Origin: Torpedo marmorata
Lineage: Eukaryota
NCBI GenBank assembly: GCA_977017645.1
Contig: OZ360238.1
Span: 1,488,001-1,552,000, forward strand
Reading direction: 5' to 3'
Length of the DNA: 64,000 nucleotides
Shown here: in pieces, positions 6,414-64,000 of the stretch
Numbering within the stretch: position 1 is the stretch's first letter
How the letters are laid out: each line of letters begins with the position of its first letter
Made by a program: the position numbers and the translations under genes
Notes under the pieces: model-generated
The model's database searches: none
Told to the model about the DNA's origin: nothing
Seen by the model: only the letters and a program-made list of their open reading frames with translations

Positions 6414-6429
6414 GTTCATAGTGTCCGTG

Positions 6430-9372: not shown

Positions 9373-10037
9373 TGGAAATTGCAGGGCGACTGGCATCGGC
9401 GGGCCTCGGAGCCCCATCTTTGGTGGTAGAAGCACCATCTCTCCTTGGACTCGTCCTTGCCTCTTGCCTACCGCTCCTTTCCAGGGCCTGCCTTGGTCTG
9501 GTTGTGAGACTTAGTGACGAGCCTCACGGTAGGCGAGCACTTCTGTTTCTGCTTCCACAGAATATCTGCCCGTGCTGCGACTTTCCGGGGGTCGCTGAAA
9601 TCCGCGTCAGCCAGGAGCAGTTGGATGTCCTCGGGCAGCTGCTCCAAGAACGCCTGCTCGAACATGATGCAGGGCTCGTGGTCTCCCAGGAGGGCTAGCA
9701 TCTCGTTCATGAGCGCTGATGGGTATCTGTCCCCGAGCCCATCCAGGTGGAGCAGCCGTGCCCCTCCCTCTCGCCGCGAGAGCCTGAAGGTCTCAGTCAA
9801 TAGCTCTTTGAAGGCAGGGTAAGTGCCTTCCGATGGTGGCCTCTGGATGAAGTTGGCCCCCCTGTCTGCAGTCTCTGGATCCAGGGCGCTGACCACATGG
9901 TAGTACCGTGTGGTCTCAGCTGTGATGCCCCGAATCTGGAGCTGAGCCTCAGCCTGGTCGAACCACACGCAGTGTCGAACTGTCCAGAAGGTCGGGAGCT
10001 TGAGGCCGACTGCGCTGATCGCTGCTTCGCTATCCAT
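9345..10037 (-). pseudogene. gag: Gypsy gag (premature TAG at 9468-9470)
   Basis: MDSEAAISAVGLKLPTFW N-terminus; the frame continues past the stop into the CHCC knuckle and ends at TGA 9345. Confidence 0.85.
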
Positions 10038-10064
10038 CGCTGGGTTTAGATGCCGTCTAAACCA

Positions 10065-10076
10065 TCGGGGTCACCA
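10065..10076 (-). promoter_or_regulatory. Primer binding site, tRNA-Trp
   Basis: Minus strand TGGTGACCCCGA 2 nt after the LTR; equals the first 12 nt of the known tRNA-Trp PBS. Confidence 0.85.
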
Positions 10077-12264: not shown

Positions 12265-13137
12265 GCCTGATCACGGAGCAAATGGCGGCGCTGCCGGGGC
12301 CACTGTAGCGGCAGCGCTGCCGCTGGTGCGGACCCGCAGGGAGCGAGGGAGCGGAGATGCAGCGCTCCCGCGGGGTCCAGCCGCCCAGTCGACGGCCGTA
12401 GGTTCCGCACGGGCTTTGAATGGCCCGTTAAAGGAGCCGACGGTGGTTTTATTTGAGATCCCGCGACCGCGGGGTCTGCGCCCAAGATGGCAGCACCTTT
12501 TAATCGGCAGCAGCCACGAGGGGCTGCAGACTCCGGGGAAGTGGGGGACTGGAGCAGGGCACCAGAGGACAGGAAGATCAACCCCCGTCTGAGAAGGAGA
12601 AGCGGAGGAGATGACCCATGGGACGGTGACCACAGTGGCGGACCAGTGAGGGGCTCTGAGGCTGAAGGACCAGTGCATGCAGCGGGCTGCTGGCGACTCG
12701 AGGCGAGGAACCCGCGGAGGCTGTGGGCTGCTGGAGACTGCTGTCGGGGGACTCACGCCGGGCTGCGGACTGCTGGAGGCTGGCTCAAACTGGCTGGAGG
12801 AGTACCAGCTATCGGAACCGGGATGCGAGGGGGTGCCAAGGGCGCCCTGACCGTGTTGGAGGTTCAGATCTGGAGCTCGGGTTGCCGATGGTTTGGACTG
12901 GACTCTGTGTGGCTGCGGAGGCTGCGGAAGCGCTGGAGGCGAATCTACGGACACTCGGTGACTCTGGGGGGACTCTCTTTTGCTTCTCTTTCTCTGACTG
13001 TAAGGAATGTTAGAGGCGCTTAGGCAATTTCTGCCGGTGGCGAATCTGTCTGCCTTGCAGCAGGCAAAAAGAAATTTCATGGAATATGACACTGTCTTAT
13101 TACTATGACAATAAATTGAATCGTGAATCTTGAATCT
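12265..13137 (+). mobile_element. GC-rich non-autonomous retroposon (family X), longest copy
   Basis: TCTGC TSD (12260-12264 and 13138-13142), tail CAATAAA(TTGAATC)n, five further copies in the window. Confidence 0.85.
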
Positions 13138-18030: not shown

Positions 18031-18349
18031 GGATAAGATGAAGGAGGAGATCCTGAAGAGGGACTACCGTGAGCTCGGAAGGAGGTTAAGAAGCAGGACC
18101 TCCAGGATTGTAATCTCAGGGCTGCTACCTGTGCTGTGCGTGGGTGGGGGCAAAAATAATAAAATCAGGAGGTTAAATGTGTGGCTGAAGGAATGGTGCA
18201 GAGTGCAGGGATTCAGGTTCATAGACCATTGGGATCTCTTCTGGGGGAGACAAGACCTCTACAGGAGGGATGGTTTACACCTGAATACAAAGGGGGCCAA
18301 TATACTGGCAGTTACGTTTAATAATGCTGTTGGATTTGATTTAAACTAA
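18031..18349 (+). pseudogene. CR1 ORF1 C-terminal SGNH/GDSL esterase-like domain
   Basis: IVISGLLP...LNVWLKEWC...FIDHW...DGLHLN.KG. Confidence 0.8.
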
Positions 18350-18396
18350 TTTGGCAGGGGGAAGGGAACAGGACTGATAGGGAAGCAGATAGGAGA

Positions 18397-21357: not shown

Positions 21358-22210
21358 TAGTAGTGATCAGCCATGATCTATAAAATGGCGGTGCTGGCTC
21401 GACGGGCCGAAGGGCCTACTCCAGCTCCTATTGTCTACTTCCTCAGGAGTTTGGGGAGGTTTGGTATGACATCGGAAACCCTGGCAAATTTCTACAGAGG
21501 TGTGGTGGAAAGTGTGCTGACCGGCTGCATCACGGTCTGGTATGGGGGCACCAATACCCCTGAGTTGGAAAGCCCTGCAAAAGGTCGTGGACATAGCCCA
21601 GGACATCACAGGCAAAACCCTCCCCACCATCGAGAACATCCACAGGGAACGCTGCCGTTGGAGGGCAGCAGCAATCATCAAGGATCCACACCACCCAGCA
21701 CATTATCTGTTCTCTCAGGAAAGAGGACTAGGTGCCACAAGACTCGCACCACCAGGTTCAGGAACACCGAGCCTCCACCATCAGACACCTCAACAATAAA
21801 CTCAATCAGAGACTCATTTAAGGATTCTTACTTTTGCACTTTATTGATTTTTTTCTCTCTGTAGTGCAGTTTATTTACATTTCTTTATTTGTTCACATGT
21901 ATATGTATCTTCTTGAGTCCAGTTTTTTGCACTACCGATATGTGGTAATTTGCCTCGCCCACAGGAAAAAGAATCTCAGGGTTGTATGTGATGTCAAGTA
22001 TGTACTCTGACAATAAATCTGAACTTTGAACAGTGTATCCAGGACCACTTTGTTTAATTTAAGTCTATTAAAGGGGAAGTCTACTTGCATCAGAAAATCA
22101 AACTGAGTAATTCCTGAATGAACTACAGGTTGCTGAAACATCTTCCAGTTCAGTATCTTACAACTATGTTCCCTTTCATTTACCTGTGGATGTACTAATT
22201 CAGTGCATGT

Positions 22211-22634: not shown

Positions 22635-24341
22635 TATGGAAGGGCATTCAAGGTATCTCCAACCACAAGACTACACCATCTGACTGTGCTGGTGATGCCT
22701 CCCTCCCAGATGCACTGAACAACTTCTACGCGCATTTTGAGGCGAAAAATTATGTGGCAGCGAAGAAGACCACCTCCTCCAAATGATCAGGTGCTGTGTC
22801 TTACAGTGGCCGATGTGAGGAGAGTGTTAGGCAAGGTCAACCCACAGAAAGCTGCTGGTCCGGATAACATTCCCGGCAGAGTGCTCAGGGGATGTGCGGC
22901 TCAGCTGGCAGATATTCTTACCGACATCTTTAACATCTCCCTGAGCAGTTCTGTGGTTCCAACGTGCTTCAAAGCCGCCACCATCGTCCCCGTGCTGAAG
23001 AAGTCATCAGTGTCCTGCCTCAATGAATACCGCACTGTCGCACTCACGTCTACCGTCATGAAGTGCTTCGAGAGGCTCGTCATGGGGCACATCAAGCTCT
23101 TGCTGCCCCTCTCATTGGACCCCCTGCAGTTTGCATATAGATCCAACCGCTCTATGGACGATGCCATCACCACTACCCTCCATCTAGCTCTCACCCACCT
23201 GGAAAATAAGGACACGTATGTTCGAATGCTGTTTATTAACTTCAGTTCGGCATTCAACACGATCATACCTCAGTACCTGATAGGGAAGTTGAGCCGGCTA
23301 GGCCCAAACACCACCCTCTGCAATTGGATTCTTGTCTTCCTGACAGGGAGACCTCAGGCAGTCCAGATCGGAAACAGCACTTCCAAGACCATTACACTAA
23401 GCATGGGGCCCCCCAGGGCTGTGTGCTTAGTCCATTGCTGTTCACTCTGCTGACTCATGACTGTGCAGCAAAACACAGCTTGAACCACATCATCAAGTTC
23501 GCTGACGATACGACCATGGTGGGCCTTATCAGCAAGAACGATAAGTCAGCGTACAGAGATGAGGTGCAGTCGCTAATGGACTGGTGCAGAGCCAACAACC
23601 TGTATCTGAATGTTAATAAAACAAAAGAGATTGTTGTCGACTTCAGGAGGGCCCGGGGAGATCACTCTCTGCTAACCATTGACGGCTCTACCGTTGAGGT
23701 TGTCAAGAGTACCAAGTTTCTTGGAGTGCGCTTGGCGGAGAATCTTACCTGGTCCCTCGACACCAGCTTCATAGCCAAGAAAACCCAGCAGCACCTCTAC
23801 TTCCTGCGAAGGCTGAGGAAAGTTAATCTCCCACCCTCCATCCTCACTACATTCTACAGAGGATGTATTGAGAGTATTCTGAGCAATTGCATCACTGCCT
23901 GGTTTGGAAACTGTACCATCTCAGACCGTAAGACCCTGCAGAGGATAGTGGAGTAAGTGGAGAAGATCATTGGGGTCTCTCTTCCTACCATGACGGACAT
24001 CTACAACACACGATGCATGTGGAAGGCAAATAACATTGTGAAGGACTTCTCACACCCCTCTTGTAAACTTTTCTCCCTTCTGCCATCTGGAAGGAGGTAC
24101 CATAGCATTCGGGCCCACGCGTCCAGATTGTGCAATAGTGTTTCCCCCAAGCCATCAGGCTCCTCAATTCCTAGAACATATGTGTACGAGTATATCATGG
24201 ATTTTTATTGTATTATAACTTAATATTTAACTCCTATTTATGTAAATATGTTCCATGGTCCTGGAGAAACGCTATCTCGTCTTTACTGTGCACTGCATTA
24301 GTAGTTATGGTATGAACAACAAATAAAGGTGACTTGACTTG
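22635..24341 (+). mobile_element. Rex1/Babar LINE, 5'-truncated, inserted into an LTR
   Basis: [45 protein letters not shown]; tail AATAAAGGT(GACTT)n; host LTR sequence resumes at 24342. Confidence 0.9.
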
Positions 24342-28822: not shown

Positions 28823-30527
28823 CTTTAGCGATTCAAGTCAGGATGTGTATTTAATGTTGTTAGTGTACCTGCCTCTACCATGCCTTTCTTTATCTTCAGA
28901 TTCCAACCACCTCTGGGTGGAAAAAAGTCTTCCTCACACCTCTTCCCTTTGCCCTAAATATATGCTTTCTAGTTTTAGACAGCTCTGCAATGGGGAAAAT
29001 TTTCCTATTATCTAATCTATTAATTGCCCTGCATGAGAACATAAGAAAACAAAAGCTGGAGTAAGTCATCTCGTCCCCTCAATCTTAATGTTATTAATAT
29101 CGTCGTGGTTGACTCAATCAACCACAGGCAATGCCCCTGACCACTTCCAGGTGACTTGCAGTGAGAGGTCGAGGAGGAAATTTCAGCAGCAGGCCACCTG
29201 GATATAGTTGCAGTATGTCCCAGAGGAGCAGAGAATGGAAAGGAAAATATGAGCAGTATCTGCAGATGTAAAAGAAAATAATTTTTCACCCACATATGTG
29301 TGCTAGGAATTTGCCTCTGGTTAGTAATACTGAAGCCACTCTGCAGCAGCAAAAATATGTTCAACTCTTCCTTTGAGTTTTGCTATAGAGTACACTGTGG
29401 CTATGATAAAATGCTTGTAGTGCTACTGACCAAGGAATATTTTCTATGCAATGAACTTTAACCATCAACAAAAATGATTACCATATTACTGCTTTCACTT
29501 TTTCATTTTACTTAGAATGGCACTTGATATAATCTTAGTGTTGGTGTTAGGATTACAGTGGAGTGTAAAACTTTAATGCTACATTCATTTGGATATTTAG
29601 GAGGCTGTGTCTCAAGCAGTTCAGTGATTTCACCTGAGTGTCCAAGGTCCATGAAAGTTTTGTCACATGCTACGTCGTACCAACTGCCTGACTCTGTTTA
29701 TGTGAAGCATTCATATAGTTAATCTCGCCCTCGCACATTTAACATAGATGAAAATTTCATACCCACAATTCACATTTCAGTCACACTGACAGGTAATAAA
29801 CATTAATGGACAAATCAGGCTAACACAGTGCATGATCTCCCCTCTTAAGCTGGGCAAGGTGGTGCTGAAATGGAGACAGCAGGAATGACTGTTCTCATAA
29901 GCAGATGATTCAAGGAGTAGGAGGCACAGATTTTAACTTCAGGGTGAAAAATACAAATTGTAAGGAAACCTTTGTGTAGTGTGGTTTGGAGCTAGAACTC
30001 GTGACGTGTTACAGATGGAAACAGTTGGTCAAGGCTTTCAAAGTTAATTTGGACAAGCATGAGGGAGAGTTACTGGGAACGGTGAAGCCAATGAATGACA
30101 AAATTCCTCCGCCGAGCCAGTAACACCTCCATGGGCAGAATGGCCTACTTCTATGCCATAACGCTTCTCTGATTCAATTCTCTGATTTCATGACAGGCAC
30201 ATCTGCCTATCTTAACCCCCATACAGGTGGTGGTATTGGCCTTGATTGGTATGACTGTTGGAGAGGACATTGCTAGTGGCCAGCCAAAACAATTGTTGAT
30301 GAAAGTATCCTTGCATCTAATCCACCTCGCATTTCACTTCCCCAAAATCCATACCTGCTTCCTTTTCACAAGTTGTAGATGCTATAGGAAAGAAAGACTT
30401 GTACATTTTCAGAACATGCCTATGTTCTTTACAATCAATGCACTTCTGTTGACATTGAAGCTGCCAATTTGCACACATCTTACTCCAGGCAGGAAAATGG
30501 CTGCAAAATCTTTTTTTCGTTTCATAA

Positions 30528-30727
30528 GCGCTGGAGGCGAATCTACGGACACTTGGTGACTCTGGGGGGACTCTCTTTTGCTTCTCTTTCTCTGACTGTA
30601 AGGAATGTTCGAGGCGCTTAGGCAGTTTCTGCCGGTGGCGAATCTGTCTGCCTTGCAGCAGGCAAAAAGAAATTTCATGTAATATGACACTGTTTTATTA
30701 CTATGACAATAAATTGAAAATTGAAAT
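30528..30727 (+). mobile_element. Family X retroposon, 3' fragment
   Basis: Matches 12928-13120; tail CAATAAATTGAAAATTGAAA. Confidence 0.9.
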
Positions 30728-35502: not shown

Positions 35503-37790
35503 TTGTCTTTGTTTTTAAATATTTTATTTAAAAAATTTTTAAATCACACATTACATAGTTTAAAATGCAAAATTATCAAATTACATGTGATACATTTTCA
35601 CCCTCACTCCCTAACCCTCCCGGAAAGAAAGAAAGAAGAAAAAGATAAAGTAAGGAGAATGTCACTCGAAAAAGAACAACTATAAACTGCATTTATTGTG
35701 GAACACAGGTTCGCCAGTCAGATCCAATATCCAGAGATTTTCAAATCCTTAAACCGACAGTTTTTATATATGGGCTCCATATTTTCAAAAAGAAATTATA
35801 TTTATTACGTAAATTATAAGTAATTTTTTCAAGTGGTATAGCTGAACGAAGTTCTGCATGCCATCTTTCTAATCCTAAATCTACATCAGATTTCCATGTA
35901 ATAGCAATGCATTTCTTAGAAACAGCTAAAGCAATACGTAAAAATTCTGTTTGATACATATTTAATTTCATCTTAACACTAATTCTTTTAATATCTCCAA
36001 ACAAAAATATCATAGGATCCATTGGGAGTGTAATTCTTAATACTTTATCTAAAAACTTTTTAACTTTCAACCAAAAATTATATATCTTTGGACAAAACCA
36101 TGTAGAATGTACAAAAGAACCTTCCCCTCTATTACATCTAAAACATAAACCGGATAATGACGGATTAAATTTCTTTAATTTTTTAGGTGTTAAATATAAT
36201 TGATGAAAAAAATTGTATTGCACTAATTTATATCTAACATTAATAATCTTCGTCATACTTTGTTTATATAATTCTTTCCATTGCTAAATGTGGATTATAA
36301 GATAATGGCGAAAATTTTAGCAAATAGAGTGGCTAAATATTTACCAGATTTAATCGACGTAGATCAAGCAGGTTTTATTAAGAATAGATATTCAAAAGAT
36401 AGTATAGCTGGATTAATTAGTTTAACAAATGTGGCACAAAAGAGAGAGGAATTAGCATTAGTATTAACATTAGATGCTGAAAAGGCTTTTGATAGATTAG
36501 AGTGGAATTATTTATTTAAAGTACTGGAAAAATTTGGTTTTGGAACTACATTTATTAATTGGATTAAAACTATATATAAAGAACCCTCTGCTAGAGTGGT
36601 AACAATTGGACAAATTTCTTCAAAATTTTCTTTGACTAGGTCAACCAGACAAGGATGTCCTTTGTCGCCAGCATTGTTTATTTTAGCAATAGAACCTTTA
36701 GCAGAATTAATTAGACAGGATATTAAGATTGTAGGTATTAAAGTTGGTAATGAAGAACATAAAATTAGTTTATTTGCAGATGACGTATTGATTTATATGA
36801 CAAAACCTATTAATTCTTTAATGCAATTGACTGTTTTATTGAGAGAATATGGGGAAATATCTGGTTATAAGATTAATTCTGATTAAAAGTGAAATTATGG
36901 CATTAACACAAGGGGATTATAGTAAATGTAAAGAAATTACACAATTTAAATGGTCAAAGGAAGGAATTAAATATTTGGGAATAAAGATTGAAGCAAAATT
37001 AACTAATCTATATAAATTAAATTATCTACCATTATTTATGAATATTAAAAAGGATTTGGAGAGTTGGAATGATTTACCTATAACTTTAATGGGAAGGGTA
37101 AATTGTATTAAAATGAATGTTTTTCCGAGAATTCAATATCTTTTTCAATCAATTCCTTATGAAATTCCTCAAAATTTTTTAAAGATTTAAATTTAATTAT
37201 TAGGAAATTCTTGTGGAAAGGAAAGTTGGCTAGAGTAGGTATGGAGAAATTAACTTGGAATTATGAAATGGATGGTTTACAACTTCCTAATTTTCAATAT
37301 TATTATAAAGCAGCCCAATTAAAATTTATTAATGAAATGTTTGATTTAGGAAAATTTTCTGCTTGGATTAGAATAGAATTAAATAATATAGGAGAAGATT
37401 TGAAAGAAGAAGTTATTTATAAATGGAATTCTAAATTATTATTAGCAAGAGGGAAAAACTCTCCTATTTTTAAGCATTTGTTAGAAATATGGAATAGAGT
37501 GGATAGAGAGATAGGAGCGAAAGGGCTAATTTCTCGAAAAATGCCTCTGTATCAAAATAAACTTATTCCATTTACTGTTGATAATCAATTATTTAAAATT
37601 TGGTTCCAAAGGGAATTAAGAAAATAAATGATTGTTTTGAAGCTAGTAAATTTATTACTTTTCAAAGAATGAAAGATAAGTTTAATGTATCAAATAATAC
37701 ACTTTTTGCTTATTATCAAATCAGAGCATTTTTAGTTGAAAGGTTGGGCTATAGTTTGACTTTACCAAGACGAAGTGAATTGGAATTATT
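35503..37790. mobile_element. 5'-inverted L1 (3' end 35503-36280 minus; RT region 36278-37790 plus)
   Basis: Plus strand LDAEKAFD, RQGCPLSP, LFADD; minus strand zinc finger and A-rich tail; junction at CCATTG. Confidence 0.85.
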
Positions 37791-38565
37791 CAAGATTCAA
37801 GATTCAATTTATTGTCATAGTAATAAGACAGTGTCATATTCCATGAAATTTCCTTTTGCCTGCTGCAAGGCAGACAGGTTCGCCACCGGCAGAAATTGCC
37901 TAAACGCCTCTAACATTCCTTACAGTCAGAGAAAGAGAAGCAAAAGAGAGTCCCCCCCAGAGTCACCGAGTGTCCATAGATTCACCTCCAGCACTTCCGC
38001 AGCCTCCGCAGCCACACAGAGTCCAGTCCAAATGATCGGCAACCCGAGCTCCAGATCCGAACCTCCAACACGGTCAGGTCGCCCTTGGCACCCCCTCGCA
38101 TCCCGGTTCCGATACCTGGTACTCCTCCAGCCAGTTCGAGCCAGCCTACAGCAGTCTCCAGCAGCCCACAGCCTCCGCGGGTTCCTCGCCTCGAGTCGCC
38201 AGCAGCCCACCGCATGCACTGGTCCTTCAGCCTCAGAGCCCCCTCACTGGTCCACCGCCGTGGTCACCGTCCCGTGGGTCGTCTCCTCTGCTTCTCTTTC
38301 TCGGTGGGGGGGGGGGTGATCTTCCCGTCCTCTGGTGCCCTGCTCCAGTCCTCCGCTTCCCTGGAATCTGCAGCCCCTCGTGGCTGCTGCCGGTTAAAAG
38401 GCGCTGCCATTTTGGGCGCAGACCCCGTGGTCGCGGGATCTTAAATAAAACCACCGTCGGCTCCTTTAACGGGCCGTTCAAAGCCCGTGTGGAACCGACG
38501 GCAGTCGACTGGGCGGTTGGACCCCGCGGGAGCGCTGTATCTCCGCTCCCACGCTCCCCGCGGGT
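37791..38565 (-). mobile_element. Family X retroposon
   Basis: Reverse complement of ~12330-13137; CAAGATTCAAGATTCAATTTATTG tail. Confidence 0.9.
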
Positions 38566-40293
38566 CTTGGATGTCATCTGCAAATTTATAGATGGAATAG
38601 GAACAGAGTTTGGCCGATGCAGTCCTAGGTGTACAGGAAGTGTAGTCGGGGGCTGACTTTGCAGTCTCACGGTGCATCAGCGTTGAGGATGATCGTGGAG
38701 GAGCTGATTGCAGCTGCAGGTCAGGATATCATGGATCCTGTACTCTCTGGAGTTTAGAAGGATGAGGGGGATCTCATCAGTCAGGAGATGGAAATTTGGA
38801 GTTCGAGGGTTAGTTTGGGGAATCAGGTGGTCAGGGTTAAGATTAGCTGGGGATTTGAAACTATAATTGCTCAGGAGCCTGTAGAAGCTCAATCATTGAA
38901 TGTGTTCAAAACTGAGCAATAGATTTTTAGATATTGAAGGAGGAAATCTTCATAGTATAAATTGACTGTAGAACAGTTTCCAAAGAAGCCAAGTATTTAG
39001 CTGATCTATAATTTGTTTATCGGTAGGGCATTTTGATTGTAGATGATATGGATTGAACAATATATTTTAACAAAAGCAATAGCCGTCTGGGCACACTGTA
39101 TAATAAACAGTTGAAGAAACACCATTATAAAGATGTCATGCTGGCCAAGAGGGTCGCTGCTCCTCCTGTTAAACAACAGTACTATTATTGATACTATATT
39201 GTCATAGAATTTGATACTGTTCCATTGTTGATGAGCAACATCAAAATGAGGCTTATCTTACTCTACATGCCCTCATTCTCCTGCTTGCACTGTAGTCCAA
39301 AAGGAGAATGTTTTCTCATGTCCATGGTTTGTGTAAGCCTTGAAATCAGCAATTGTCCCATATTTCCCTGTTGACCGTTGTAATTTGAAGCAACTATAGA
39401 AAGCATCACAGTTGGAGAATTCTACCCGCAACCAGAGAAATCGAATAACAATTAACACGTCACATAAAAACATAGGAAATTGAAGCAATGCTGGGCCATC
39501 CTTGTGCACCATTGATATTGTAATAGCTGATCATCTATCTCAGTATCTCTCCTGATACCCCTTGATGCCTTTTGTACCTAGGGATTTAACTATTGCTATT
39601 CTAAATATTTCTATTGAACTTAAAAGTATTCAGTAAATTTGCCTCTACAATGCTCCATGGCATGAATTCTACGTGTTCGACTTCCTTGGCATGAAGCAAT
39701 TTCTCCTTATCTCATTCCTAAATCTCTTGCACCAACCTGAAACTGGCTCCTTTTGGACATCCCAGCCAAGGAAAACATCCTCCCCACAATGTTTATTTGT
39801 TCATGGTTTATTGTTACGGGGACCATTTCGTTATGCATGCTACCCAGCCACCACAAAAAGGCACTGTGCTCTGGCACCATTTTGGATTCAGAAAATCACA
39901 TGGAAGAACAAAGTAACCAGTTTAATCATGACAATGGTCAAACTGGTTTTATACAATTTTAACATTGGCAAGCAAATGAATTTTATTCACATGGCTTCCT
40001 GTTACTCCAGGTCATCGACAAGTCGATGGGAATCCCGCACAGTTGCTCAGTGCCAACAGTCACATACCCTGTAATAGCAGCCTCTGTGGCCACAGTAACT
40101 GTCCTGCCAATAAACAGCTCACCCATACTTGTCTATTCTGTGTAGTCCTGGTAGAATTTTTAAAGTTTCAATTAAATCTCCTCCTATCCTTCTGAGTTAG
40201 TGAGCTAAATCATCGTCAATCTCATACTAGAACTGTTGAAAGATCCTTTAAACAGTGCTGATAGTAAAAAAGGGAGTGAACTAATGACCTAAT

Positions 40294-40545
40294 GTAAAGG
40301 TAAAAGGTAAAGGTTCCATTATTGTCACGTAATACTACATTTTAGAATGTAACATACATGAAATTCTTTAATTTTTGTCTACCGTAAAGCAGACAAGAGA
40401 GTCACTACTTTGTCCAGCGCCCCTCACAGAAACCTACAGCACCTGGTGTTCCTAGGCGGTCTCCCCTCCAAGTACTGACCGAATTGTGCCTGCTTAGCTT
40501 CCGAGATCAGACAATCCCAGTCGTATTCAGGCTATTGGTGCTGTA
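40294..40545 (-). mobile_element. 5S rRNA-derived SINE (SINE3-type), copy 1
   Basis: Minus strand GTCTGATCTCGGAAGCTAAGCAGG...AGTACTTGGAGGGGAGACCGCCTAGGAACACCAGGTGCTGTAGG matches 5S rRNA including the A and C boxes (40431-40545), followed by a LINE-like tail and (CCTTTA)n. Confidence 0.9.
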
Positions 40546-40558
40546 CATCACGTCCTTG

Positions 40559-40861
40559 CGAATCGGGATGCGAGGGGGTGCCGAGGGCGACCTGACCGTG
40601 TTGGAGCTCGGGATGCCGATGGTTTGGACTGGACTCTGTGTGGCTGCGGAGGCTACGGAAGCGCTGGAGGCGAATCTATGGACACTCAGTGACTCTGGGG
40701 GGACTCTCTCTTTTGCTTCTCTTTCTCTGACTGTAAGGAATGTTAGAGGCGCTTAGGCAATTTCTGCCGGTGGCGAATCTGTCTGCCTTGCGGAAGGCAA
40801 AAAAAATTTCATGGAATATGACACTGTCTTATTACTATGACAATAAATTGAATCTTCAATC
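40559..40861 (+). mobile_element. Family X retroposon, 3' fragment
   Basis: Matches 12818-13135 with a 14-bp internal deletion. Confidence 0.9.
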
Positions 40862-41614: not shown

Positions 41615-43790
41615 TGTAGGGGTCCTCAATGATTTTGCGTGCCCTCTTCAGACAACGATACCAGTAGATCATGTCGATGGGGAGGAGGGATCCTCTCTGT
41701 TACTCTTATGATCCTGTGGATTGACCTCCGATCCAATCTCTGCAGCAACTGTACCACACTGTGATGCAGCCAGCCAGGACGCTCTTGATAGAGCTCCTGT
41801 CGAGACTGGACAGGATGGTGGCCGGTAGCCTTGCCTGCTTCAGTCTTCTCAGGAAGTGCAGTCGTTATTGCGCCTTCCTGACAAGTGAGGAGATATGTGT
41901 TCATGATTGGTCACTACTTAAGTGGACTCGGAGGAACTACTCTCTCTACTACCGAGCTATTAATGTGTAGTGGAGGGTGGTCGTCCCTGGTCCTCCTGAA
42001 GTCCACGATCATATCCTTTGTCTTGTCCATGTTGAGACTCAGGTTGTTATTCTCGCACCATTTCACGAGATTTTCCACCTCTTCCCTGTAGTGCGATTCA
42101 TTGTTGTTGCTGGCCAACTACTGTTGTGTCATCTGCAAACTACAGAGAGGGGTGTTGGGTCCCAGTAAGGACAGCTTCTCCATGAGTCTCTGAGGTATGA
42201 TTGTATTAGACACCGAGCTTAATTGTCAATGAACAACAGCCTGGCATATGAGGCTTTGTTCTCCAGGTGAGACAGGACGGAGTGGAAGGACAAGGCTATA
42301 GCATCATCAATAGAATGGTTCCATCTGTAGGCAAATTGAAATGGGTCTAGTGTCTCTGGGGAGTGCCTTTGATGCGTTCCATCACCAGACGCTCAAAGTA
42401 TTTCATAATGGTGGAGGTCAATGCCACTGGGCAGTAGTCATTGAGGCCTGTTACTGCCGCCCTATTTGGTACCCGGATAATGGTGGCCATCTTGAAACTT
42501 GCGGGGACGATGGATTGCTGCAATGACGTGTTGAAGATGTCCATAAGGACCTCTGTCAGTTGGTCTGCACAGTCCTTCAGTATCCAACTGGGTATGTTGT
42601 CTGGTTCTGCTGCCTTGTGAGGGTTCACCTTGGATAGGGTTCTCCTCACCTCGGCCACGGCAATGCAAGGGATCTATTCATCGGGGAGACGGAGCTTTCT
42701 TTGGCGTCAGCCTGTTCTCATCGAAGCGTGCGTAGATGTTGTTCAGGTTGTCCGGAATGGAGGTGTTGTTGTCTTTGACTCGCAAGGTTGGCTTGTGGTC
42801 TGTTATAGTTTTGATCCCTTGCCACGTGCGCCTTGTGTCACCAGTGTCGCATAGCTGACTGTGGATCTTCTGTGCATACCCACACTTTGGATTGCACAAG
42901 AGAGTTCAGCCCTGACTGATCTTAGTGCCACACTGTCTCCTGTTTTGAAGGCAGCATCACGAGCTCTGAGAACTGCACGGTCTTCTGCCTCCAACCATGT
43001 TTTCTGAACTCTCTTTTCCTTCTTTTTCTCTGACTGTAAGGAATGTTAGAGGCGCTTAGGCAATTTCTGCCGGTGGCGAATCTGTCTGCCTTGCAGCAGG
43101 CAAAAAGAAATTTCATGTAATATGACACTGTTTATTACTATGACAATAAATTGAATCTTGAATCTTGATTAGCCCTGGTTGCGTAGCATTTAATCTCTGT
43201 GACATCCTCTGCACTTGCTAACGTAGTCGGTCACTGAGCTTGTGTACTCCTCAATGTTTATATGGCCATTGTAGGTGGCTGTCTCCCTGAAACCGCTCCA
43301 GTCCGTAGTTTCAAAGCAATCCTGTAGCGCTGCTGTGCCCTCGCCCCACCCCGGCCATGTCCTGATCTCCCTGCAATCTAGCTTTGTTCTTTTTGCCAGC
43401 GGTCTGTATGCTGGGGTTAGCTGGATGGATATTATGTGAACCGAGTAACCAAGGTGAGGCGAGGGGCAGCAGGGACGTTGGTGTACACCTGATCTCAGGT
43501 GTAAGGTGTTCTCTCCTCTGGTGGCAAAGTCAACATGCTGTTGAAACTGTGGTAGAACTATTTTCATGTTGGCATGGTTGAAGTCGCCAGCTACAATCAT
43601 GGCACCATCAGGGTGGGAGGTCTGGGCTTCATAGATGGCACCATGAAGTTCCTTCATTGCTATACCCTTATTTGCTGAAGGCGGAATGTAAACTGCGGCA
43701 ATCAGCATGGCTGTGAACTCCCTGGGCAGATAGAAGGGTCTGCATTTCACCATCAGGTATCTCTGCTGAGCAGAATGTCTTTACAGCAAC
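41615..43790 (-). mobile_element. Rex1/Babar LINE, decayed (EN and RT)
   Basis: CRPFYLPREF...AVYIPP...AGDFNHA (43190-43753); NPHKAAEPDNIP...DYCPVALTS; WCENNNLSLN. Confidence 0.88.
43008..43168 (+). mobile_element. Family X retroposon, 3' fragment inserted in Rex1
   Basis: Same 3' sequence and (TTGAATC)n tail. Confidence 0.9.
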
Positions 43791-49550: not shown

Positions 49551-50262
49551 AAAGAGAAACACGAAAGTCTGCAAACGCTGTGATTGTAATAAAAACACAC
49601 AGAAATGCTGGAGGAACTTAGCTGGTCTCGCAGCGTTCAAAGGAGGTTAAGATATATTACCAACGTTTTGGGCCTGAGCCCTACTTCAAGGTATAAGCAA
49701 AAAACAGGAAGGCATCTAAATAATGACTGAAGAAAGGCAGGGGGAGGAGTCCAGACCAACAATCAAAAGGTTTTAATTGGATATGATGAGAGGAAAAGTG
49801 AGAATTGATTTTGGATCTGTGAAAGGAGACAGAGGGAAAAGGGAAGAGAGAGAGAGAGCTGGGGGAAAGGCGACAGGGAGAAGAAGAAGGGGGTGTTTAA
49901 CGGAAACCGGAGAAGTTGATGTTGATGCTATCTGGTTGGAACGTGCCCAGACGGAACATGAGGTGCAGTTACTCCAATTTGCAGGTGGTCTCAGTCTGGC
50001 AGTGCATGAGACCACGGACAGACATGTCAACAAGGGAATGGGACGGGGAATTGAAATGGGTGGCCACTGGGAGATCCACGCTATTGCGACGACAGAGCTG
50101 AGGGGCTCATCAAAGTGATCTCCCAGTCTGCGTCCATTCTCTCCGATGTAGAGAAGACCACAACGGGAGCACCGGATGCAGTAGATGACCCCTACAGATT
50201 CACAATTGAAATGTTGCTTCACTTGGAAGGACTGTTTGGGGCCCTGAATGGTGGTGAGGGAG
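49551..50262 (-). mobile_element. Penelope-like element 3' fragment with GIY-YIG endonuclease
   Basis: FNCESVGVIYCIRCSRCGLLYIGENGRRLGDHF (ORF 49773-50222). Confidence 0.85.
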
Positions 50263-50799
50263 GAATACAGAGAAGTGGCAGATGGAGTTCAATCTGGAAA
50301 AGTATGAAGTGATGCACTTTGGAAGGGGGAAGTGCAAGGTTTATGGCAGGATTCTTAATAGTGTGGAGAACAGGGGATCTTGGGGTCTGAGCCCATAGAT
50401 CCCTCAAAGTTGCCGAGCAAGTTGATAGGGTGGTGGTCTGCTGGCCTTCATTAGTCAGGGATTGAGTTCAAGAGCCACAAGGTAATGTATAAAACTTTGG
50501 TTATGCCACACCTCAGAGTATCATGTTCCATTCTGGTGGCCTCGTTATAGGAAGCATTTGGAAACTTTGGAGAGGGTGCAGAGGAGGTTTATCAGGATGC
50601 TACCTGGATTAGAGAATGTGTCTCATGAAGAAAGGTTGAGTAAATGGGTTTTGCTCTTTGGAGCAACAGAGGATGAGAGGCGACTTAATAGAGGTGTATA
50701 AGACTATGAAAGACAAAGAGAGTGTGGACACCCAGCACCTTTATTCCAGGGCGGCAATGGCCAATGCCAGAGGACGTCTGTTTAAGGTGAGTGGAAGAT

Positions 50800-55093: not shown

Positions 55094-56281
55094 GATCGGG
55101 TCTGGATGAGAAGAAGCAAAGATTGAAAATATCCAAGGAAGCACAATGAGAAGTTGGGTAAAGGGGATAGTGATGTTTAAGTTTTGTAAAAGGGATGTTG
55201 AGTTGAGTTATAATATATTATGTTGCAGGAATGTTGGGTTTATTTCTACTCGTTTTCATTTTAAGAGAACATTATAAAGATATAAGGGGAGCCCGGGAGT
55301 GGGTAGGGAGTTATGGTTGGGTGGGCACGAAGTGTACCCCGGTTTAAGGGGGTTGATGGCGCAAGGGGAGGAGTCGTTTTGCAAGATGGCGCTGGAAAAA
55401 AGGGGAGGGAGTTTCTTTTTGCTTCGCAATCTTTTTTCGCGGGCTTTTTGGGTTTTCTGTTTACGTCACCGTCAGTGCAGGGAAAACATACGGGATATAT
55501 TGTAATGGAGAACACATTATGTACGAAGAAATGTACGAAGGGGTTATGAAAACAATATATTACAGTGTGAATATTATAATGAATAAGACTATAACATTTA
55601 TTAGTTTTAATGTTAACGGATTAAATGGACCCATAAAAAGGAAAAGAGTTTTGGCACACCTTAAAAAATTGCAGGTGGTTATAGTTTTTTTACAGGAAAC
55701 TCATCTTACGAATAAAGAACATAACAAATTGAAGAGGGAATGGGTGGGACAGGTGGTCGCATCTTCTTTCAATTCCAAGGCTAGGGGGGTGGCTATTTTA
55801 ATAAATAAAAATGTTCCGGTGACAGTGGAGGATGCGGTTATTGACTCAGCTGGGAGATTTGTGATGATACATTGTCCAATTTATTCGGAACCCTGGACAC
55901 TTCTGAACCTCTACGCACCAAATTTTGATGATGAGACTTTTATGAAAGATATATTTCTGAAAGTGGCAGGGTGAATGTGAATCTGTTAATTGGAGGGGAT
56001 TTTAACTTTTGTCTGGATCCCATTCTGGATAAGTCTGTAAAGACAGTAACGAAGGCCAGGGATGCTAAAACCACTCTGGCTTTTATGAAAGATTTAAACT
56101 TAATAGACGCATAGCGATGGTTGCACCCACAAGCTAGAGATTACTCCTTTTATTCTAAGCCCCATGATTCCTATACTAGAATTGACTACTTCTTAATGTC
56201 GGCACAGTTGGAAAGCAGAGTGATCGAATTGGAATATCTATCTAGACTATTATCAGATCATGCACCTTTGATTTTATCCAT

Positions 56282-56635
56282 ATGAAGGGGACAGATAGAG
56301 TCAATGTGGACAGGCTTTTTCCATTGAGAGTGGGGGAGATTCAAACAAGAGGGCATGGATTGAGATTGAAGGGGGAAAAGTTTAGAGGAATCATGAGGGG
56401 GAATTTCTTCACTCAGAGGGTGGTAGGAGGGTGGAACGAGCTTCCGGCCGAAGTGGTAGATGCAGGTTCAATTTTAATGTTTAAGGAAAAGTTGGATAGG
56501 TATATGGACGAGAGAGGTGTGCAGGGTTATGGGCCGGGTGCGGGTCAGAGGGACTAGGTGGGAGATGGTGTTCAGCATGGACTAGAAGGGCCGAACTGGC
56601 CTGTTTCTGTGCTGTAAATGTTATATGGTTATATA
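56282..56635 (+). mobile_element. Young CR1 3' end inserted in L1 ORF2
   Basis: Near-identical to 53379-53670; (TTATATGG)n tail. Confidence 0.9.
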
Positions 56636-58425
56636 GTAATGACAGAAAAACAGAGTAGCGCATATAGATGGTGCCTTAATTCTACGCTGTTGAAAAGGAC
56701 AGATTTTTGTAATTTTATAAGGGGTCAGATAAATTTGTTTTGTGAAACAAATTGCCCCTCTACTAATAATAGTTTTTTTAATATGGGATACTTTGAAGGC
56801 TTATTTGAGGGGGCAAATAATTTTGTACACTAAAAATGTTAAGAAAAAATATTTGGCGGAAGTAAACGATTTAGAACGAGAAATTCTAGAGTTGGAAAAG
56901 GAATATCAACAATCTGGCTCAAAGGAAAAATATCAAATTCTGGTAAACAAGAAACTTAAATATAACACTTTACAAACGTATCAAGTGGAGAAAGCTATTT
57001 TGAGATCTAAGCAAAAATAATATGAACTAGGCGAAAGGGTCCATAAGGTCTTGTCTTGGCAATTGAAGGCAGAAGAGACATCGAGCACAATTAACGCGAT
57101 TCAGTTGGGACCAGACAAGATATCACATAACCCAAAAGAGATAAATGATATTTTCAAGCAGTTCTATGCAGAACTATATAAATCAGAGTCACCCAAAGAT
57201 TTAACTAAGATAGACGATTTTTTGTTCAACATTGATCTGCCCAGATTGGACCAAGACGATCAGACGAAATTAAACTCCCCTTTCTCCAGAGAGGAGATCG
57301 AAGAAGCCTTGAGTTCATTACAAGCTAATAAATCATCGGGGGAGGATGGTTTCCTGCCCGAGTTCTACAGAGAATTTAAAGAACTTCTGATGCCCCTTAT
57401 TATGGATGTAGTTAATCGGGCAGCAGAAACACAGACTCTCCCGGAATCCTTTTCAACAGCTATTATTACGGTTATACCCAAGAAAAATAGAGATCCATTA
57501 AAGCCGTCTTCATATAGACCTATTTCATTGCTAAATGCTGATTATAAGATAATAGCTAAGGCATTAGCTAATAGATTAGGTCATTATTTACCAAGTCGGC
57601 TTTGTGAAGAGGAGATGCTCTGCTAACAACTTGGGTAGATTATTTAGTGTAATACATTTGGCACAATCCAAAATAGACCCGAGCATAGCCGTGTTTTTAG
57701 ACGCAGAAAAAGCCTTTGATAGGCTGGAATTACCTTTTTTATTTAAAGTACTTGAAAAGTTCGGACTGAGACAATCATTTGTCCAATGGGTAAAAACACT
57801 TTACTATAAACCTCGGGCTAAAATTATAATGAATGGTCAGATATCGTAGACATTCTCACTGAGTAGATCTAGTAGGCAGGGTTGTCCACTGTCTCCAGGA
57901 CTCTTTGTATTAGCAATTGAACCTTTAGCGGAAGTTATCAGGAGGGATCCAGAAATAAAGGGATTCAAGGTGGATCAGGTGGATCACAAGATTAACTTGT
58001 TTGCAGATGATGTATTGTTATATCTAACAGGCCCGGCTGAGTCGTTGACCAAATTGCGGACTACACTGGAGGATTACGGTATGATTTCAGGATATAAAAT
58101 AAATTTAGACAAAAGTGAAATCATGCCACTGACAAAATTTGATTATAAGAAATATCAACAGGGGAGTAGCTTTAGATGACAACCAGAAGGTATCAAGTAT
58201 CTCGGGATAATGACTGATAATAATCTACAGAATTTCTATAAACTCAATTACCTCCCGGTGCTTGGAAAGATTGATGACGATTTACTTAGATGGAGAAGCC
58301 TGCCCATCACATTAGTGGGCAGAGTTAATTGTATCAAAATGGCAGTGATGCCAAAATTGTAATACCTTTTTCAATCTTTACCTATCCCTTTGCCACAAAC
58401 TTTTTTCAAAACACTCAATGGATAT

Positions 58426-59322
58426 TGTTACAAATTCAAACCAGCAACGACAGAAGACGCAATGCAAAAGGGGTAAAATTGAAATTATTATTTATTAAAC
58501 ACAAGTAAACATATAATTTCACAACAATTAACCCCACTATAAACGTCTATAAACTCTATTCTTATCTAAAAGGTGTATGTGTGTGTGTGTAAAGCCCAGA
58601 CCATTACAGTCTGTGCCCAACCCTTATGTAAAAATGGAAAAACTTTCCCCAAAAACCCCAGGTCAGTCATAAAAAACAAGTCAGTCAAAAAAAAGGATAA
58701 TACAGTCGACAAAATCCACTCTCTAAGTTCAGGCTTCAACTTTTTCTCTGTGTCTGGTAGAAGTACTTCTGAATGAACGTTGGAGAGAGACAATGACTGT
58801 TTATGCTTACAAATACTTGTTTTCTTCTCTGATGACGTCCCCTTCTTGTAGGTTCATAAGGATTGCAAGTTCCAGATCAGTATACCACTGATTTAGGCGT
58901 ATGCTTGAATCTCACAGCTAGTCTCGCTGATCTCACGCCTGTTCTCCACAGAAGTTGCTTTTTCTCAGAATTTCTCTGAGACAGGAGGCCATGTGCTATT
59001 CTGTCAGTCTTTCTCTGACTTTGCACACACCTGGATTTGGCTGTGTCTTGTAGCCTTGCAACTCACAACTGTGTCTGCTTTGCAGAGATCTGCCCCTGCT
59101 TTTTGCAGAAGTGAAACAAATGTATCTTGTCTAGCCTGTCTCTCTCTCTCTGGTCTCTCTCTGTCTGGATACACCAAGAGTGCAACAATGTATCTTGTCT
59201 GGGTACACCAAGTAGCTGGGGAAGTTAACTCTTTCAGTACCTGGCCCTAGTGTATACTCCAAAAGACTTCATCCTTCCTGCTGACCGTCCGCAGTTCAAA
59301 TGGTCAGTCATGGTCCATAACA
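58426..59322 (-). mobile_element. Solo LTR family Y inserted in L1 ORF2
   Basis: TGTTA...TAACA termini and ATAT TSD; removing it restores the L1 frame NGY|VRQFIW. Confidence 0.9.
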
Positions 59323-61806
59323 ATATGTAAGACAGTTCATCTGGAATGGTACCGTTTCCAGAGTCTCCATGGAAAAGCTGACGTGGGATTATAAATTGGG
59401 GGGTTTACGATTACCAGATTTTAAGAAGTATTACTTAGCAGCCCAGTCGAGGTTTCTCTCATCCTTTTTTGAGGAGGGTGATATCTTTCCATGGGTCCAA
59501 ATTGGACTAAATACTAAAAGGGAGAAAATAGCTAAGGACTTTATTTACAAATGGAATACTAGTTAATATCAAAAAGAACGAACAACCCCATTCTGAAACA
59601 TATGATTAAAATTTGGCAAGAAACCAAAGAGTGTATTGGAGGAAAAGTTGGAATATCCCCCAAAACACCTCTGTTTCAAAATGAACTTATGCCCATGAAT
59701 TTGGGTAATAAAATATTGAACGTTTGGTATCAGAAGGGGATTCGGTATATTGAAGATTGTTATGATAATGGACAGCTTATGTCCTTTGAACAACTTAAAG
59801 ATAAATATGATTTGTCTAATAGAACCTTTCACTGTTTTCTCCAATTAAGATCCTTCCTGCGAGAAAGGTGGGGTCCTACATTGACTCCACCTACAAGCAA
59901 CGAGGTAGAACAGTTACTTCAACTGGGAAATGCACCCAAATTTATATCCAGAATATACTTTGTGCTCCAAGGCGAAAGCCCTAAGCCGGGTATACATAGA
60001 TCGAGGGAGAGGTGGGAGTCGGACCTGGGTACGACAATTCAGGAACGTTGCTGGTCAAATTGGTGTAGGAATAGTATGACGATGGTTATTAATGCTAGAT
60101 ACAGGTTGGTCCAGTATAATTTCTTGCACCAACTATATCTCACACCACAAAAGTTACACAAATCAAAATCCGAAATATCGGAAATGTGTTTCAGATGTGG
60201 TGGATAAATTGGAACTTTCCTGCACTCCACTTGGTCCTGTGCAAAGGTACGATCTTTTGGTATGATATATCTAATACACTAACCAGAATTATGGGAGTAG
60301 CCGTTCCACTGGACCCGGAGTTGTATCTCTTAGGAAATCTAATGGACATAAGCTACAAATTATCTAAATTCCAAATTCAATTTGTGCTAGTTGCTTTGTC
60401 CGTAGCAAAAAAATGCATAGTAGTCACTTGGAAGTCCGACTCCCCCCTTCTAATCACTCGATGGTCAGCAGAAATGCGCAGTTGTATTCCTATGGAGAAA
60501 ATCACATATAATCTTAGGAATAAATATGATACATTTGTTAAGGTGTGGCAACCATACCTAGAGTATATTGGTGTCCAGTTATAATTTAAACCCTAAAGTA
60601 CAGTACAATGTAATGTATAAATACTTAATGGTGTGACGTCTCCAAGGAGGTTGAAAAATCAATGTAAGCACTGACGGTACGTTTAGTTTTTTATTTTATT
60701 TTTCCTTTTCTTCTGTGTTTTTTTTTTAATGTTTTTTCTTTTCAGTTGGGGGAGGGAGGGAGAGTTTAATAATAATGTGTATAATTGGAAATTGTATATT
60801 TTTTGTTTATATTATGAACTTTTTTTTGAAAATTAAAAATAAAATATTTTTTTTTAAAATTTAAAAATGTAAAACAGGTGATGCTTCCTTAATTCATATG
60901 TTCTGGACCTGCCCTAGCTTAGAAAAATTTTGGAAGGAAGTTTTTCAAACATTATCGGCGATTCTAAATTTAAAATTGGAACCTAGCCCTTTAATTGCTC
61001 TTTTTGGAACATTCTGAGAATATGATGTGTTACTAACTTCAATTTAATGCCACATTTTATCTTTTACTTCGTTGATGGCCAGACGTGCAATTTTGATTAA
61101 GTGGAAAGATAATACTCCACCTACACATACACAATGGCTAAGGGACATTGTCTTGTTTCAATTTAGAAAAAATTAGATATGCAATCAATGATTCAAATAT
61201 TAAATTCTTGGACTGCTACCACAACCTTAAGATTTAATGTTAATCTGGAATCTTGGCGTTGTGTTATCCCTCTCTAAGGTTGTGCCACTTGGATTTATGA
61301 ATGTTAATCTTCAACCTTGTTTAGGGGAAGGGGTTTTGAAATGTATTTATTTTTTCTTTTGTTATGTTCTATTTTATTATCTTGAGTGTGCTTTGGAACT
61401 TGTACTTATGATCATTATTGTAACTTTTTTTCTGATCTTGTAGCACACTGTATAATTGTATTGTTCAACTTTTTATTGTAAAATATCAATAAAAATATTT
61501 TAAAAAGAAACTGTACATGTTTGTGATGAGAGTCCACATTGTATTTGTGTGCCTGTTATAGTTTTGTATATTTTGTGTTAGTACATATCCCAGCCAGGCA
61601 TGATATGTGTACACCCTTAGGGCCTGAGCATTGGATTTCCCAGAAAGAGATCCACAAGTGAGATTGGCAGTTAAAAACAATAGGAACCAAATGTATTCAT
61701 GCATGTGAAATTTCACTTTCATGTTCTTGTTCTTCACTTCCATTTCACAAACTGCTTATGATGCTGAACACGCTCTCCATTCGGTATTTTCTTTGATCAA
61801 TGATAT

Positions 61807-63591: not shown

Positions 63592-63819
63592 CATTATTGT
63601 CACGTAATACTACATTTAGAATGTAACATACATGAAATTCTTTAATATTTGTCTACCGTAAGGCAGACAGAGAGTCGCTACTTTGTCCAACGCCCCTCAC
63701 AGAAACCTACAGCACCTGGTGTTCCTAGGCAGTCTCCCCTCCAAGTACTGACCAGTCTTGTGCCTGCTTAGCTTCCGAGATCAGACAATCCCAGTCGTAT
63801 TCAGGCTATTGGTGCTGTA
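63592..63819 (-). mobile_element. 5S rRNA-derived SINE, copy 2
   Basis: Highly similar to 40317-40545; 5S head at 63704-63819. Confidence 0.9.
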
Positions 63820-63943
63820 TTGTATGTGCTTTACATTCTTGTGTGAGTAATGTTGCAACATTGTGGGCAGTAACAGATATTCAACATGTGCTAGGATACT
63901 CATGTCAATCTCATTCTAGCTAATCAGTATTACCAAGATAGGT

Positions 63944-64000
63944 CAAGATTCAATTTATTGTCATAGTAATAAAACAGTGTCATATTACATGAAATTTCCT
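63944..64000 (-). mobile_element. Family X retroposon tail, runs off the right edge
   Basis: CAAGATTCAATTTATTGTCATAGTAATAAAACAGTGTCATATT. Confidence 0.85.

What the first reader, a model, noticed from the sequence alone, without database searches (positions are those of the whole stretch)
40294..40545. 5S-rRNA-headed SINE with a Rex1/Babar-like tail (second copy at 63592-63819)
Seen: a ~115-nt 5S head with internal Pol III A and C boxes, fused to a ~130-nt tail (GTCTGCYTTACGGTAGAC...AAAGAATTTCATG...TGACAATAA). The tail resembles local Rex1/Babar 3' ends (CTGCCT...CAGGAAAAAGAATCTCAG...TGACAATAAA at 21950-22020). Known: SINE3 elements are rare, and the ones I know of carry CR1/L2-type tails. 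Inference: a possibly undescribed SINE3 family mobilised by Rex1/Babar. Two dispersed copies with the same head-tail junction show it is a family, not a one-off 5S pseudogene.
Basis: partly seen in the sequence, partly recalled or inferred. Interest (0 to 1): 0.7.

Follow-up and report, generated by a model that had tools for sequence, protein, structure and literature searches.

The report
5S-headed SINE built on mini-Rex1
This is one copy of a young jumping-DNA family with more than 18,000 copies, in which a 5S ribosomal RNA gene copy is fused to a short tail that likely comes from the two extreme ends of a Rex1-type retrotransposon and likely lets it borrow that element's copying enzyme; the same tail also sits behind a tRNA head and a long GC-rich head in this genome.

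Summary
Confirmed: a ~240-nt 5S-headed SINE (SINE3). The head–tail junction 20-mer occurs 18,491 times in the 6.2-Gb genome (control 0). Copies are dispersed, about 2% diverged, end in (ACCTTT)n and lack long target duplications. The head matches the genome's own 5S gene at 93/119. Its closest relative (105/130) is the 3' end of an ~850-nt GC-rich non-coding repeat. A tRNA-Thr-headed sister family (1,566 junctions) shares it at 121/125. The tail has the Rex-type terminal architecture, found after 33/74 Rex, 1/61 CR1 and 0/56 Tx1-like ORF ends. Its first ~35 nt resemble Rex 5' termini, and five headless 5'+3' mini-Rex copies were found. The best reading is therefore a bipartite mini-Rex1 module under three heads, copied by Rex1 enzyme (inferred; no exact LINE partner, no RNA evidence). 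5S SINEs with non-CR1 tails and 5S/tRNA head pairs are known (CoeSINE4/5, Ped-1/2, HaSE1/3, OS-SINE1). Rex1 as a source of bipartite modules was not found in nine paper searches. Repbase, Dfam and SINEBase could not be checked. This scan noted the same family before, here and in other genomes.

The parts
40294..40545 (-). 5S-headed SINE, copy 1 (full length)
   Evidence: 230 matches and 7 mismatches to the family majority
40430..40545 (-). 5S rRNA-derived head (about 5S positions 4-119); the 5S terminator is cut to three T
   Evidence: Rfam 45.5 bits; majority 93/119 to the tandem 5S gene, which is followed by a T5 run
40485..40499 (-). Pol III type-1 A box
   Evidence: 13/15 to the own 5S gene; box limits 50-64 recalled
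40453..40470 (-). Pol III type-1 C box
   Evidence: 15/18 to the own 5S gene; box limits 80-97 recalled
40396..40429 (-). Middle ~35 nt, likely derived from a Rex1 5' terminus (GGCGC...GCGACT motif)
   Evidence: ranks first at the 5' terminus in 5 of 8 Rex-A copies (one tied; tRNA form 6 of 8); motif shared by four Rex 5' ends; profile search not significant
40376..40395 (-). First tail hairpin
   Evidence: predicted fold, z -3.6 for the tail
40319..40361 (-). Terminal hairpin and GACAATAA motif, Rex-type 3' architecture
   Evidence: architecture after 33/74 Rex, 1/61 CR1, 0/56 Tx1-like ORF ends
40294..40314 (-). (ACCTTT)n microsatellite end of variable length
63592..63819 (-). 5S-headed SINE, copy 2, lacking the microsatellite, tail-to-tail with a truncated Rex 3' end
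40560..40861 (+). 5'-truncated copy of the GC-rich non-coding family (subfamily A), head-to-head with copy 1; it ends in a related tail
   Evidence: subfamily-A tail 83/137 to the SINE tail
12278..13135 (+). Full-length (~855 nt) GC-rich non-coding element, same tail lineage; further copy at 37788-38566 (-)
   Evidence: fixed 5' start AAATGGCG in many copies
21367..22030 (+).
   Evidence: same 3' end as full-length ~3.2-kb copies

Best explanation
It is a young, high-copy 5S-headed SINE whose ~125-nt tail likely descends from an internally deleted Rex1-type LINE (about 30 nt of its 5' end joined to about 90 nt of its 3' end), and which is likely transcribed by Pol III from the 5S internal promoter and likely copied by a Rex1 reverse transcriptase that recognises the terminal hairpin. 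Shown: copy number, dispersion, fixed junction, 5S identity, sharing of the tail with a GC-rich family and a tRNA-Thr family, lack of T4 runs, lack of long target duplications, and the existence of headless mini-Rex copies. Inferred history: a mini-Rex module acquired a GC-rich head; a 5S RNA copy was joined to that module or a close relative by template switch; T-runs that would stop Pol III were lost; later a pre-tRNA-Thr replaced the 5S head at the shared TTT.
For: 18,491 exact junctions, control 0. 3 copies in 60 random 10-kb stretches, about 31,000 (95% 6,400-91,000). Mean divergence 2.2%; 21 of 30 copies reach the first 8 nt. T4 runs occur in 2 of 70 SINE bodies but in 26 of 30 GC-B ends at the homologous hairpin; the 5S gene's T5 is cut to T3. 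Same two-hairpin fold in the SINE, the GC element and a Rex end. The terminal hairpin closes just before ACAATAA in Rex families of different sequence. Tail similarity z>3 after 8/74 Rex, 1/61 CR1 and 1/56 Tx1-like ORF ends; architecture 33/74, 1/61, 0/56. The middle ranks first at Rex 5' termini. A pattern for a Rex 5' motif within about 100 nt of the 3' motif gave 10 hits, control 0; 5 are headless mini-Rex copies from at least two families. Shared words of 7 nt or more between flanks in 2/70 against 3.7% in controls; 14 rebuilt empty sites are blunt, 1-5-nt duplications or short deletions. tRNA head 71/73 to tRNA-Thr genes against 5S head 93/119, so the tRNA head is the newer one.
Against: No autonomous LINE with this exact tail was found: 0 of 30, 0 of 13, 0 of 30 and 0 of 30 loci viewed. 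Similarity to Rex ends is modest, and 66 of 74 Rex regions stay at or below z 3. Folds of two of the three Rex ends tested were no better than shuffles, z 0.3 and 0.2. Profiles of Rex 5' ends and of the middle segment gave no significant hit; best E 0.12 and 0.65. The middle ranked poorly in 2 of 8 Rex-A copies, and copy 1 ranked 31st on Rex B. The 5' motif was defined after seeing both sides. Higher conservation of the promoter than of the 5' head is not significant (42/48 against 32/45, p 0.07). The label Rex1/Babar rests on the recalled RVT_1 + ALKBH8_N layout; no listed homolog carried that name. The 70 copies were not de-duplicated.
Confidence: 0.68

Rival explanations
1. A Rex-mobilised SINE3 whose tail is simply the last 125 nt of the GC-rich element; only the last ~90 nt are Rex-derived and the likeness of the middle to Rex 5' ends is chance.
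For: Profile tests of the middle were not significant. The match covers only about 20 of 30 nt. The tail is colinear with the GC-B end at 105/130.
Against: First rank among 400-480 windows in most Rex-A copies and, for copy 2 and GC-B, on Rex B. Headless mini-Rex copies exist. The loose motif occurs only 6 times outside SINE copies in 1.2 Mb of strand-bases.
Confidence: 0.2
2. The SINE is mobilised by a non-Rex LINE (L2, CR1 or an unsampled clade) with a similar end.
For: No exact partner was found. Vertebrate SINE3 are said to be moved by the CR1 clade (PMC7245038). Blunt or short-deletion insertion is also typical of L2 and CR1 (recalled).
Against: CR1 and Tx1-like ends lack the architecture (1/61, 0/56). 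The RT hits in 1.3 Mb fell into Rex, CR1 and Tx1/L1 groups; no L2 was recognised among the 46 weak hits read by eye.
Confidence: 0.08
3. Independent 5S-plus-LINE chimeric retropseudogenes, or a family spread by segmental duplication, rather than a self-propagating SINE.
For: A small block of duplicated flanks exists on one contig (8 of 13 loci).
Against: One fixed junction in 18,491 places. Shared head substitutions absent from the 5S gene. Unrelated flanks in the 30 + 30 loci viewed.
Confidence: 0.01

Closest known systems
CoeSINE4 (tRNA head) and CoeSINE5 (5S head), coelacanth; Ped-1 (5S) and Ped-2 (tRNA), springhare; HaSE1 (tRNA) and HaSE3 (5S), moth; SINE-1_Pmo, python (PMC5786205 and PMC3747384, passages)
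   Same: 5S head directly on a bipartite LINE-derived module; 5S and tRNA heads on one tail; about 225-350 nt.
   Different: Their module comes from RTE. Here it is Rex-type. PMC5786205 says only RTE, Ingi, Vingi and R2 give bipartite non-autonomous LINEs, and only RTE and Vingi feed SINE middles.
OS-SINE1 of salmon and trout (5S head, Deu domain, RSg-1 tail; tail shared with tRNA-headed SlmI and HpaI) (PMC3747384 table, PMC5135761 passage)
   Same: 5S head; a LINE tail shared between 5S- and tRNA-headed SINEs. RSg-1 is, as I recall, Rex1-clade (not confirmed in any text read), which would make 5S + Rex1 tail a known pairing.
   Different: OS-SINE1 has a central Deu domain. This element has no room for one: head and a 125-nt tail only.
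SINE3-1 of zebrafish and AmnSINE1 (DeuSINEs)
   Same: 5S-derived head, dispersed vertebrate SINE.
   Different: Deu body and CR1/L2-type tail; not so here.
Bird SINEs with GC-rich heads upstream of bipartite RTE (PMC7245038 passage)
   Same: Parallels the ~850-nt GC-rich family that carries the same module.
   Different: RTE rather than Rex; origin of the GC-rich head unknown in both.
Described cartilaginous-fish SINEs: HE1, SacSINE1, SINEX-1_CM/SINE2-1_CM
   Same: Probable host group (inferred from recalled HE1/HER1-like repeats and ray homologs).
   Different: All listed with tRNA heads and CR1-type partners; no 5S head is listed.

Membership tests
SINE (SINEBase definition, PMC3531059) | Short (<1 kb), interspersed, non-tandem | tested here: met
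   238-nt majority; unrelated flanks on many contigs
SINE (SINEBase definition, PMC3531059) | At least 100 copies | tested here: met
   18,491 exact junctions
SINE3 | At least 60% identity to 5S rRNA over at least 60 nt | tested here: met
   93/119 global, 84% over 106 nt local, to the own 5S gene; Rfam hit
SINE3 | Type-1 internal promoter (A, IE, C) retained and no internal Pol III terminator | tested here: met
   13/15, 5/6, 15/18; T4 in 2 of 70 copies. Sequence only.
SINE3 | Transcribed by Pol III | not testable with these tools
   No RNA holder listed; only contigs were available
Rex1-mobilised SINE | 3' end shares the partner LINE's terminal structure | tested here: met
   Architecture 33/74 Rex, 1/61 CR1, 0/56 Tx1-like; folds
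Rex1-mobilised SINE | A specific autonomous LINE with a near-identical 3' end | tested here: inconclusive
   None among the loci viewed; only the first 13-30 loci of each search could be read
Rex1/Babar clade (for the LINEs) | RT phylogeny with named Rex1 references | not testable with these tools
   RVT_1 + ALKBH8_N; about 80% identical teleost and ray homologs without clade names; label recalled
Bipartite LINE-derived SINE (PMC5786205) | Middle from LINE 5' UTR, end from LINE 3' UTR | tested here: inconclusive
   Rank tests positive, mini-Rex copies found, profile tests not significant
DeuSINE (OS-SINE1, SINE3-1) | Central Deu domain of about 330 nt | tested here: not met
   Head and tail account for all 238 nt
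An already curated Repbase/Dfam/SINEBase entry | Match to a deposited consensus | not testable with these tools
   Databases not held; SINEBase supplement not readable

The most novel reading that the evidence does not exclude
Rex1 is a fifth LINE clade that yields bipartite (5' end + 3' end) non-autonomous modules. In these fish one such module has been fitted with three different heads (GC-rich, 5S, tRNA-Thr), and the steps can still be read in one genome: headless mini-Rex copies, loss of Pol III terminators, head swap. The 5S form is an undescribed SINE3 spread over several related species.
Probability: 0.5. Interest if true: 0.6.

Novelty: new variant of a known kind. Interest (0 to 1): 0.46.

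Why it matters
It would add Rex1 to the short list of LINE clades (RTE, Ingi, Vingi, R2; PMC5786205) known to give bipartite passengers, and it qualifies the statement that vertebrate SINE3 ride the CR1 clade (PMC7245038). One 125-nt module under three heads is a natural experiment on what a Rex1 enzyme needs in its RNA and on how a Pol II-type tail adapts to Pol III (T-runs in 26/30 donor ends, 2/70 SINE copies). A young family with species-specific variants is also a ready source of presence/absence markers.

Tried and rejected
Looking for an autonomous LINE with the same tail. Four patterns (1,070, 13, 412 and 2,389 matches; 30, 13, 30 and 30 loci read) gave only the tRNA sister, truncated SINEs and GC-family ends. 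A guessed 5S-end pattern found two SINE copies, not the gene; the Rfam search then found the tandem array (47 scored matches only, so a second 5S type is not excluded). HMMs of Rex 5' ends and of the middle were not significant. Long TSDs were not found. My first idea that the tRNA head came first was dropped, because that head is 71/73 to its gene while the 5S head is 93/119. The first similarity counts (15/95, 0/63, 0/86) included duplicates and one SINE copy; one search removed them (Rex 99 raw, 78 de-duplicated, 74 clean; CR1 69, 67, 61; Tx1 89, 57, 56). Expression: no RNA holder listed; contigs cannot show transcription. Runs X9, X11 and X16 covered the stretch but listed no junction-bridging piece. 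The clade of RSg-1 and a DUF1891-Rex link were not found in print. PMC3242629 and PMC1484453 are not held. The SINEBase table in its supplement, which may list partner clades and bear on novelty, could not be read.

Full report
Observation. Both copies are present on the minus strand. Rfam finds 5S at 40431-40548 and 63704-63822, the only two gathering-level hits in the window. They are 95.7% identical over 230 nt. Copy 1 ends in (ACCTTT)n. Copy 2 stops after the GACAATAA motif against a truncated Rex end.

Family status. The window lies in a 6.2-Gb genome. A DNA search scored 40 of 2,449 candidates; the 39 other than the window's own are 95-97% identical. Thirty loci show sharp ends and unrelated flanks. 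The 20-nt junction occurs exactly 18,491 times, reversed control 0. Three copies in 60 fixed-position 10-kb stretches give about 31,000 (95% 6,400-91,000). The first 30 junction hits on one contig differ from their 238-nt majority by 2.2% on average, a figure biased low by the exact-match selection; 21 of 30 are full at the 5' end. Shared flank words of 7 nt or more occur in 2 of 70 copies against 3.7% in shuffled pairs. Fourteen empty sites rebuilt from host repeats are blunt, have 1-5-nt duplications, or have deletions up to about 30 nt, often with microhomology to the tail repeat.

Head. The genome's tandem 5S gene matches the head at 93/119: A box 13/15, IE 5/6, C box 15/18, positions 1-49 32/49. 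The excess conservation of the promoter is not significant (p 0.07). The gene's T5 terminator is reduced to T3 at the junction, and only 2 of 70 copies hold a T4 run in the body.

Tail relatives. Asking for the tail behind anything but 5S gave 1,070 matches. 27 of 30 loci read carry a tRNA-derived head, and ARAGORN calls tRNA-Thr(TGT) in 10 of 12 tested. This sister family has 1,566 exact junctions, is 199 nt long and 2.2% diverged, and shares the tail at 121/125. Its head is 71/73 to true tRNA-Thr genes, one of which has a TATTT trailer like the SINE's CATTT, so the tRNA head is likely the later addition. The tail's closest older relative is the end of an ~855-nt GC-rich element with a fixed AAATGGCG start and several subfamilies. 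Subfamily B (2,389 exact end motifs) matches at 105/130; the window's subfamily A matches at 83/137. 26 of 30 subfamily-B ends have a T4 or longer run in the terminal hairpin where the SINE has none, as expected if Pol III read-through was selected (inference).

Partner. LINEs with RVT_1 + ALKBH8_N, called Rex1/Babar from recall, end in AATTTC-hairpin-GACAATAA-microsatellite across families of different sequence. The SINE tail folds into the same two hairpins (z -3.6 and -4.2); one Rex end did likewise (z -2.0) and two did not beat shuffles. After removing duplicates and SINE- or GC-containing regions, the architecture follows 33 of 74 Rex, 1 of 61 CR1 and 0 of 56 Tx1-like ORF ends; similarity z>3 in 8, 1 and 1. 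No L2 RT was recognised in 1.3 Mb. No autonomous LINE with this very tail appeared in four targeted searches.

Bipartite origin. Earlier scan notes on other genomes suggested that the middle is a Rex 5' end; I tested this. The 36-nt middle scores best at the extreme 5' terminus among 400-480 overlapping windows in 5 of 8 Rex-A copies (one tied), and in 6 of 8 for the tRNA form; it ranks poorly in two copies. On Rex B, copy 2 and two GC-B ends rank first of 208, copy 1 31st, GC-A 45th. Four Rex 5' ends share GGCGC...GGCGACT with the middle. Profile searches were not significant. A genome pattern for that 5' motif within about 100 nt of GACAATAA gave 10 hits, control 0. Five are headless 5'+3' mini-copies (three family B, one family A, one unassigned), two are longer family-B 5' ends, and three are GC-family ends. 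Rex LINEs here do therefore produce such modules; that this tail is one remains likely, not proven.

Distribution. Twenty runs of 10 studies hold part of the stretch. Of 8 runs laid, 5 (coded organisms A, B, C, G, H; five studies, one possibly the source) list contigs bridging the junction. In B, C, G and H at least 95% of depth has the tail variant seen in the tRNA sister and GC-B, which fits an older 5S form there. The host is likely a ray (recalled HE1/HER1-like repeats; ray homologs).

Mechanism. Likely Pol III transcription from the 5S boxes through the T-free tail, binding of the terminal hairpin by a Rex1 ORF protein, and target-primed reverse transcription starting in the (ACCTTT)n end, with blunt or slightly deleted targets. 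Transcription and mobilisation are untested.

Literature. I read passages of PMC3747384, PMC3531059, PMC5786205, PMC7245038, PMC5499810, PMC4824008 and PMC5135761; other papers were seen as search listings only. 5S heads on RTE-derived bipartite modules, and 5S/tRNA pairs on one tail, are described (CoeSINE4/5, Ped-1/2, HaSE1/3). OS-SINE1 joins 5S, Deu and an RSg-1 tail; RSg-1 as Rex1 is my recall. PMC5786205 lists only RTE, Ingi, Vingi and R2 as making bipartite LINEs. Nine searches showed no 5S SINE from cartilaginous fish and no bipartite Rex1. Repbase, Dfam, SINEBase and most subscription papers were out of reach. The scan's own notes record this family many times; a look-up by sequence showed nothing.

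Verdict. A real SINE3 family and a new variant of a known kind; interest 0.46.

Noticed in passing
G000 genome-wide; L031-L060: tRNA-Thr(TGT)-headed sister SINE, 199 nt, 1,566 exact junctions, with a fixed A-to-T change in the B box (tRNA position 58); 2 of the 7 intact-B-box hits are SINE copies.
   Followed up: yes
window 12278-13135, 37788-38566, 40560-40861, 30526-30718, 43008-43168, 63934-64000: Abundant ~855-nt GC-rich non-coding repeat with a fixed AAATGGCG start and subfamilies 65-95% alike; the origin of its first ~730 nt is unknown and no match to Rex-A 5' UTRs was found.
   Followed up: partly
L296, L299, L300, L303, L304: Headless mini-Rex insertions of 90-120 nt made of the 5' and 3' ends, with different breakpoints.
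   Followed up: partly
window 40546-40559: Copy 1 sits head-to-head, 14 nt from a 5'-truncated GC-rich element; chance or a coupled insertion.
   Followed up: no
window 40537-40545 and 40435-40443: The first 9 nt of the head are the exact complement of head positions near its 3' end, extending 5S helix I; other organisms show a 10-nt version.
   Followed up: partly
L015, L078, L086, L093: Short tandem re-copies of the SINE's first 13-20 nt at the 5' junction, like template jumps at the end of reverse transcription.
   Followed up: no
L116-L123 (contig C58): Eight near-identical loci in which a GC-rich element interrupts a SINE tail, spread over 17 Mb: a larger duplicated unit.
   Followed up: no
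window 18340-21357: Uninterrupted 1,005-aa CR1-type endonuclease-RT frame.
   Followed up: no
window 771-2447, 3378-3836, 6300-10070, 49773-50288, 55357-60584: Remnants that look like LTR retrotransposons, a GIY-YIG (Penelope-like) piece and L1/Tx1-like LINEs, by recalled motifs.
   Followed up: no
window 23240-23953: Rex-type RT about 80% identical to teleost proteins, as close as to ray proteins; could reflect horizontal transfer or slow change.
   Followed up: no
G000 C25:86.20-86.56 Mb: Tandem 5S rDNA array with units of about 3.2-3.8 kb; the 12 genes read are identical.
   Followed up: partly
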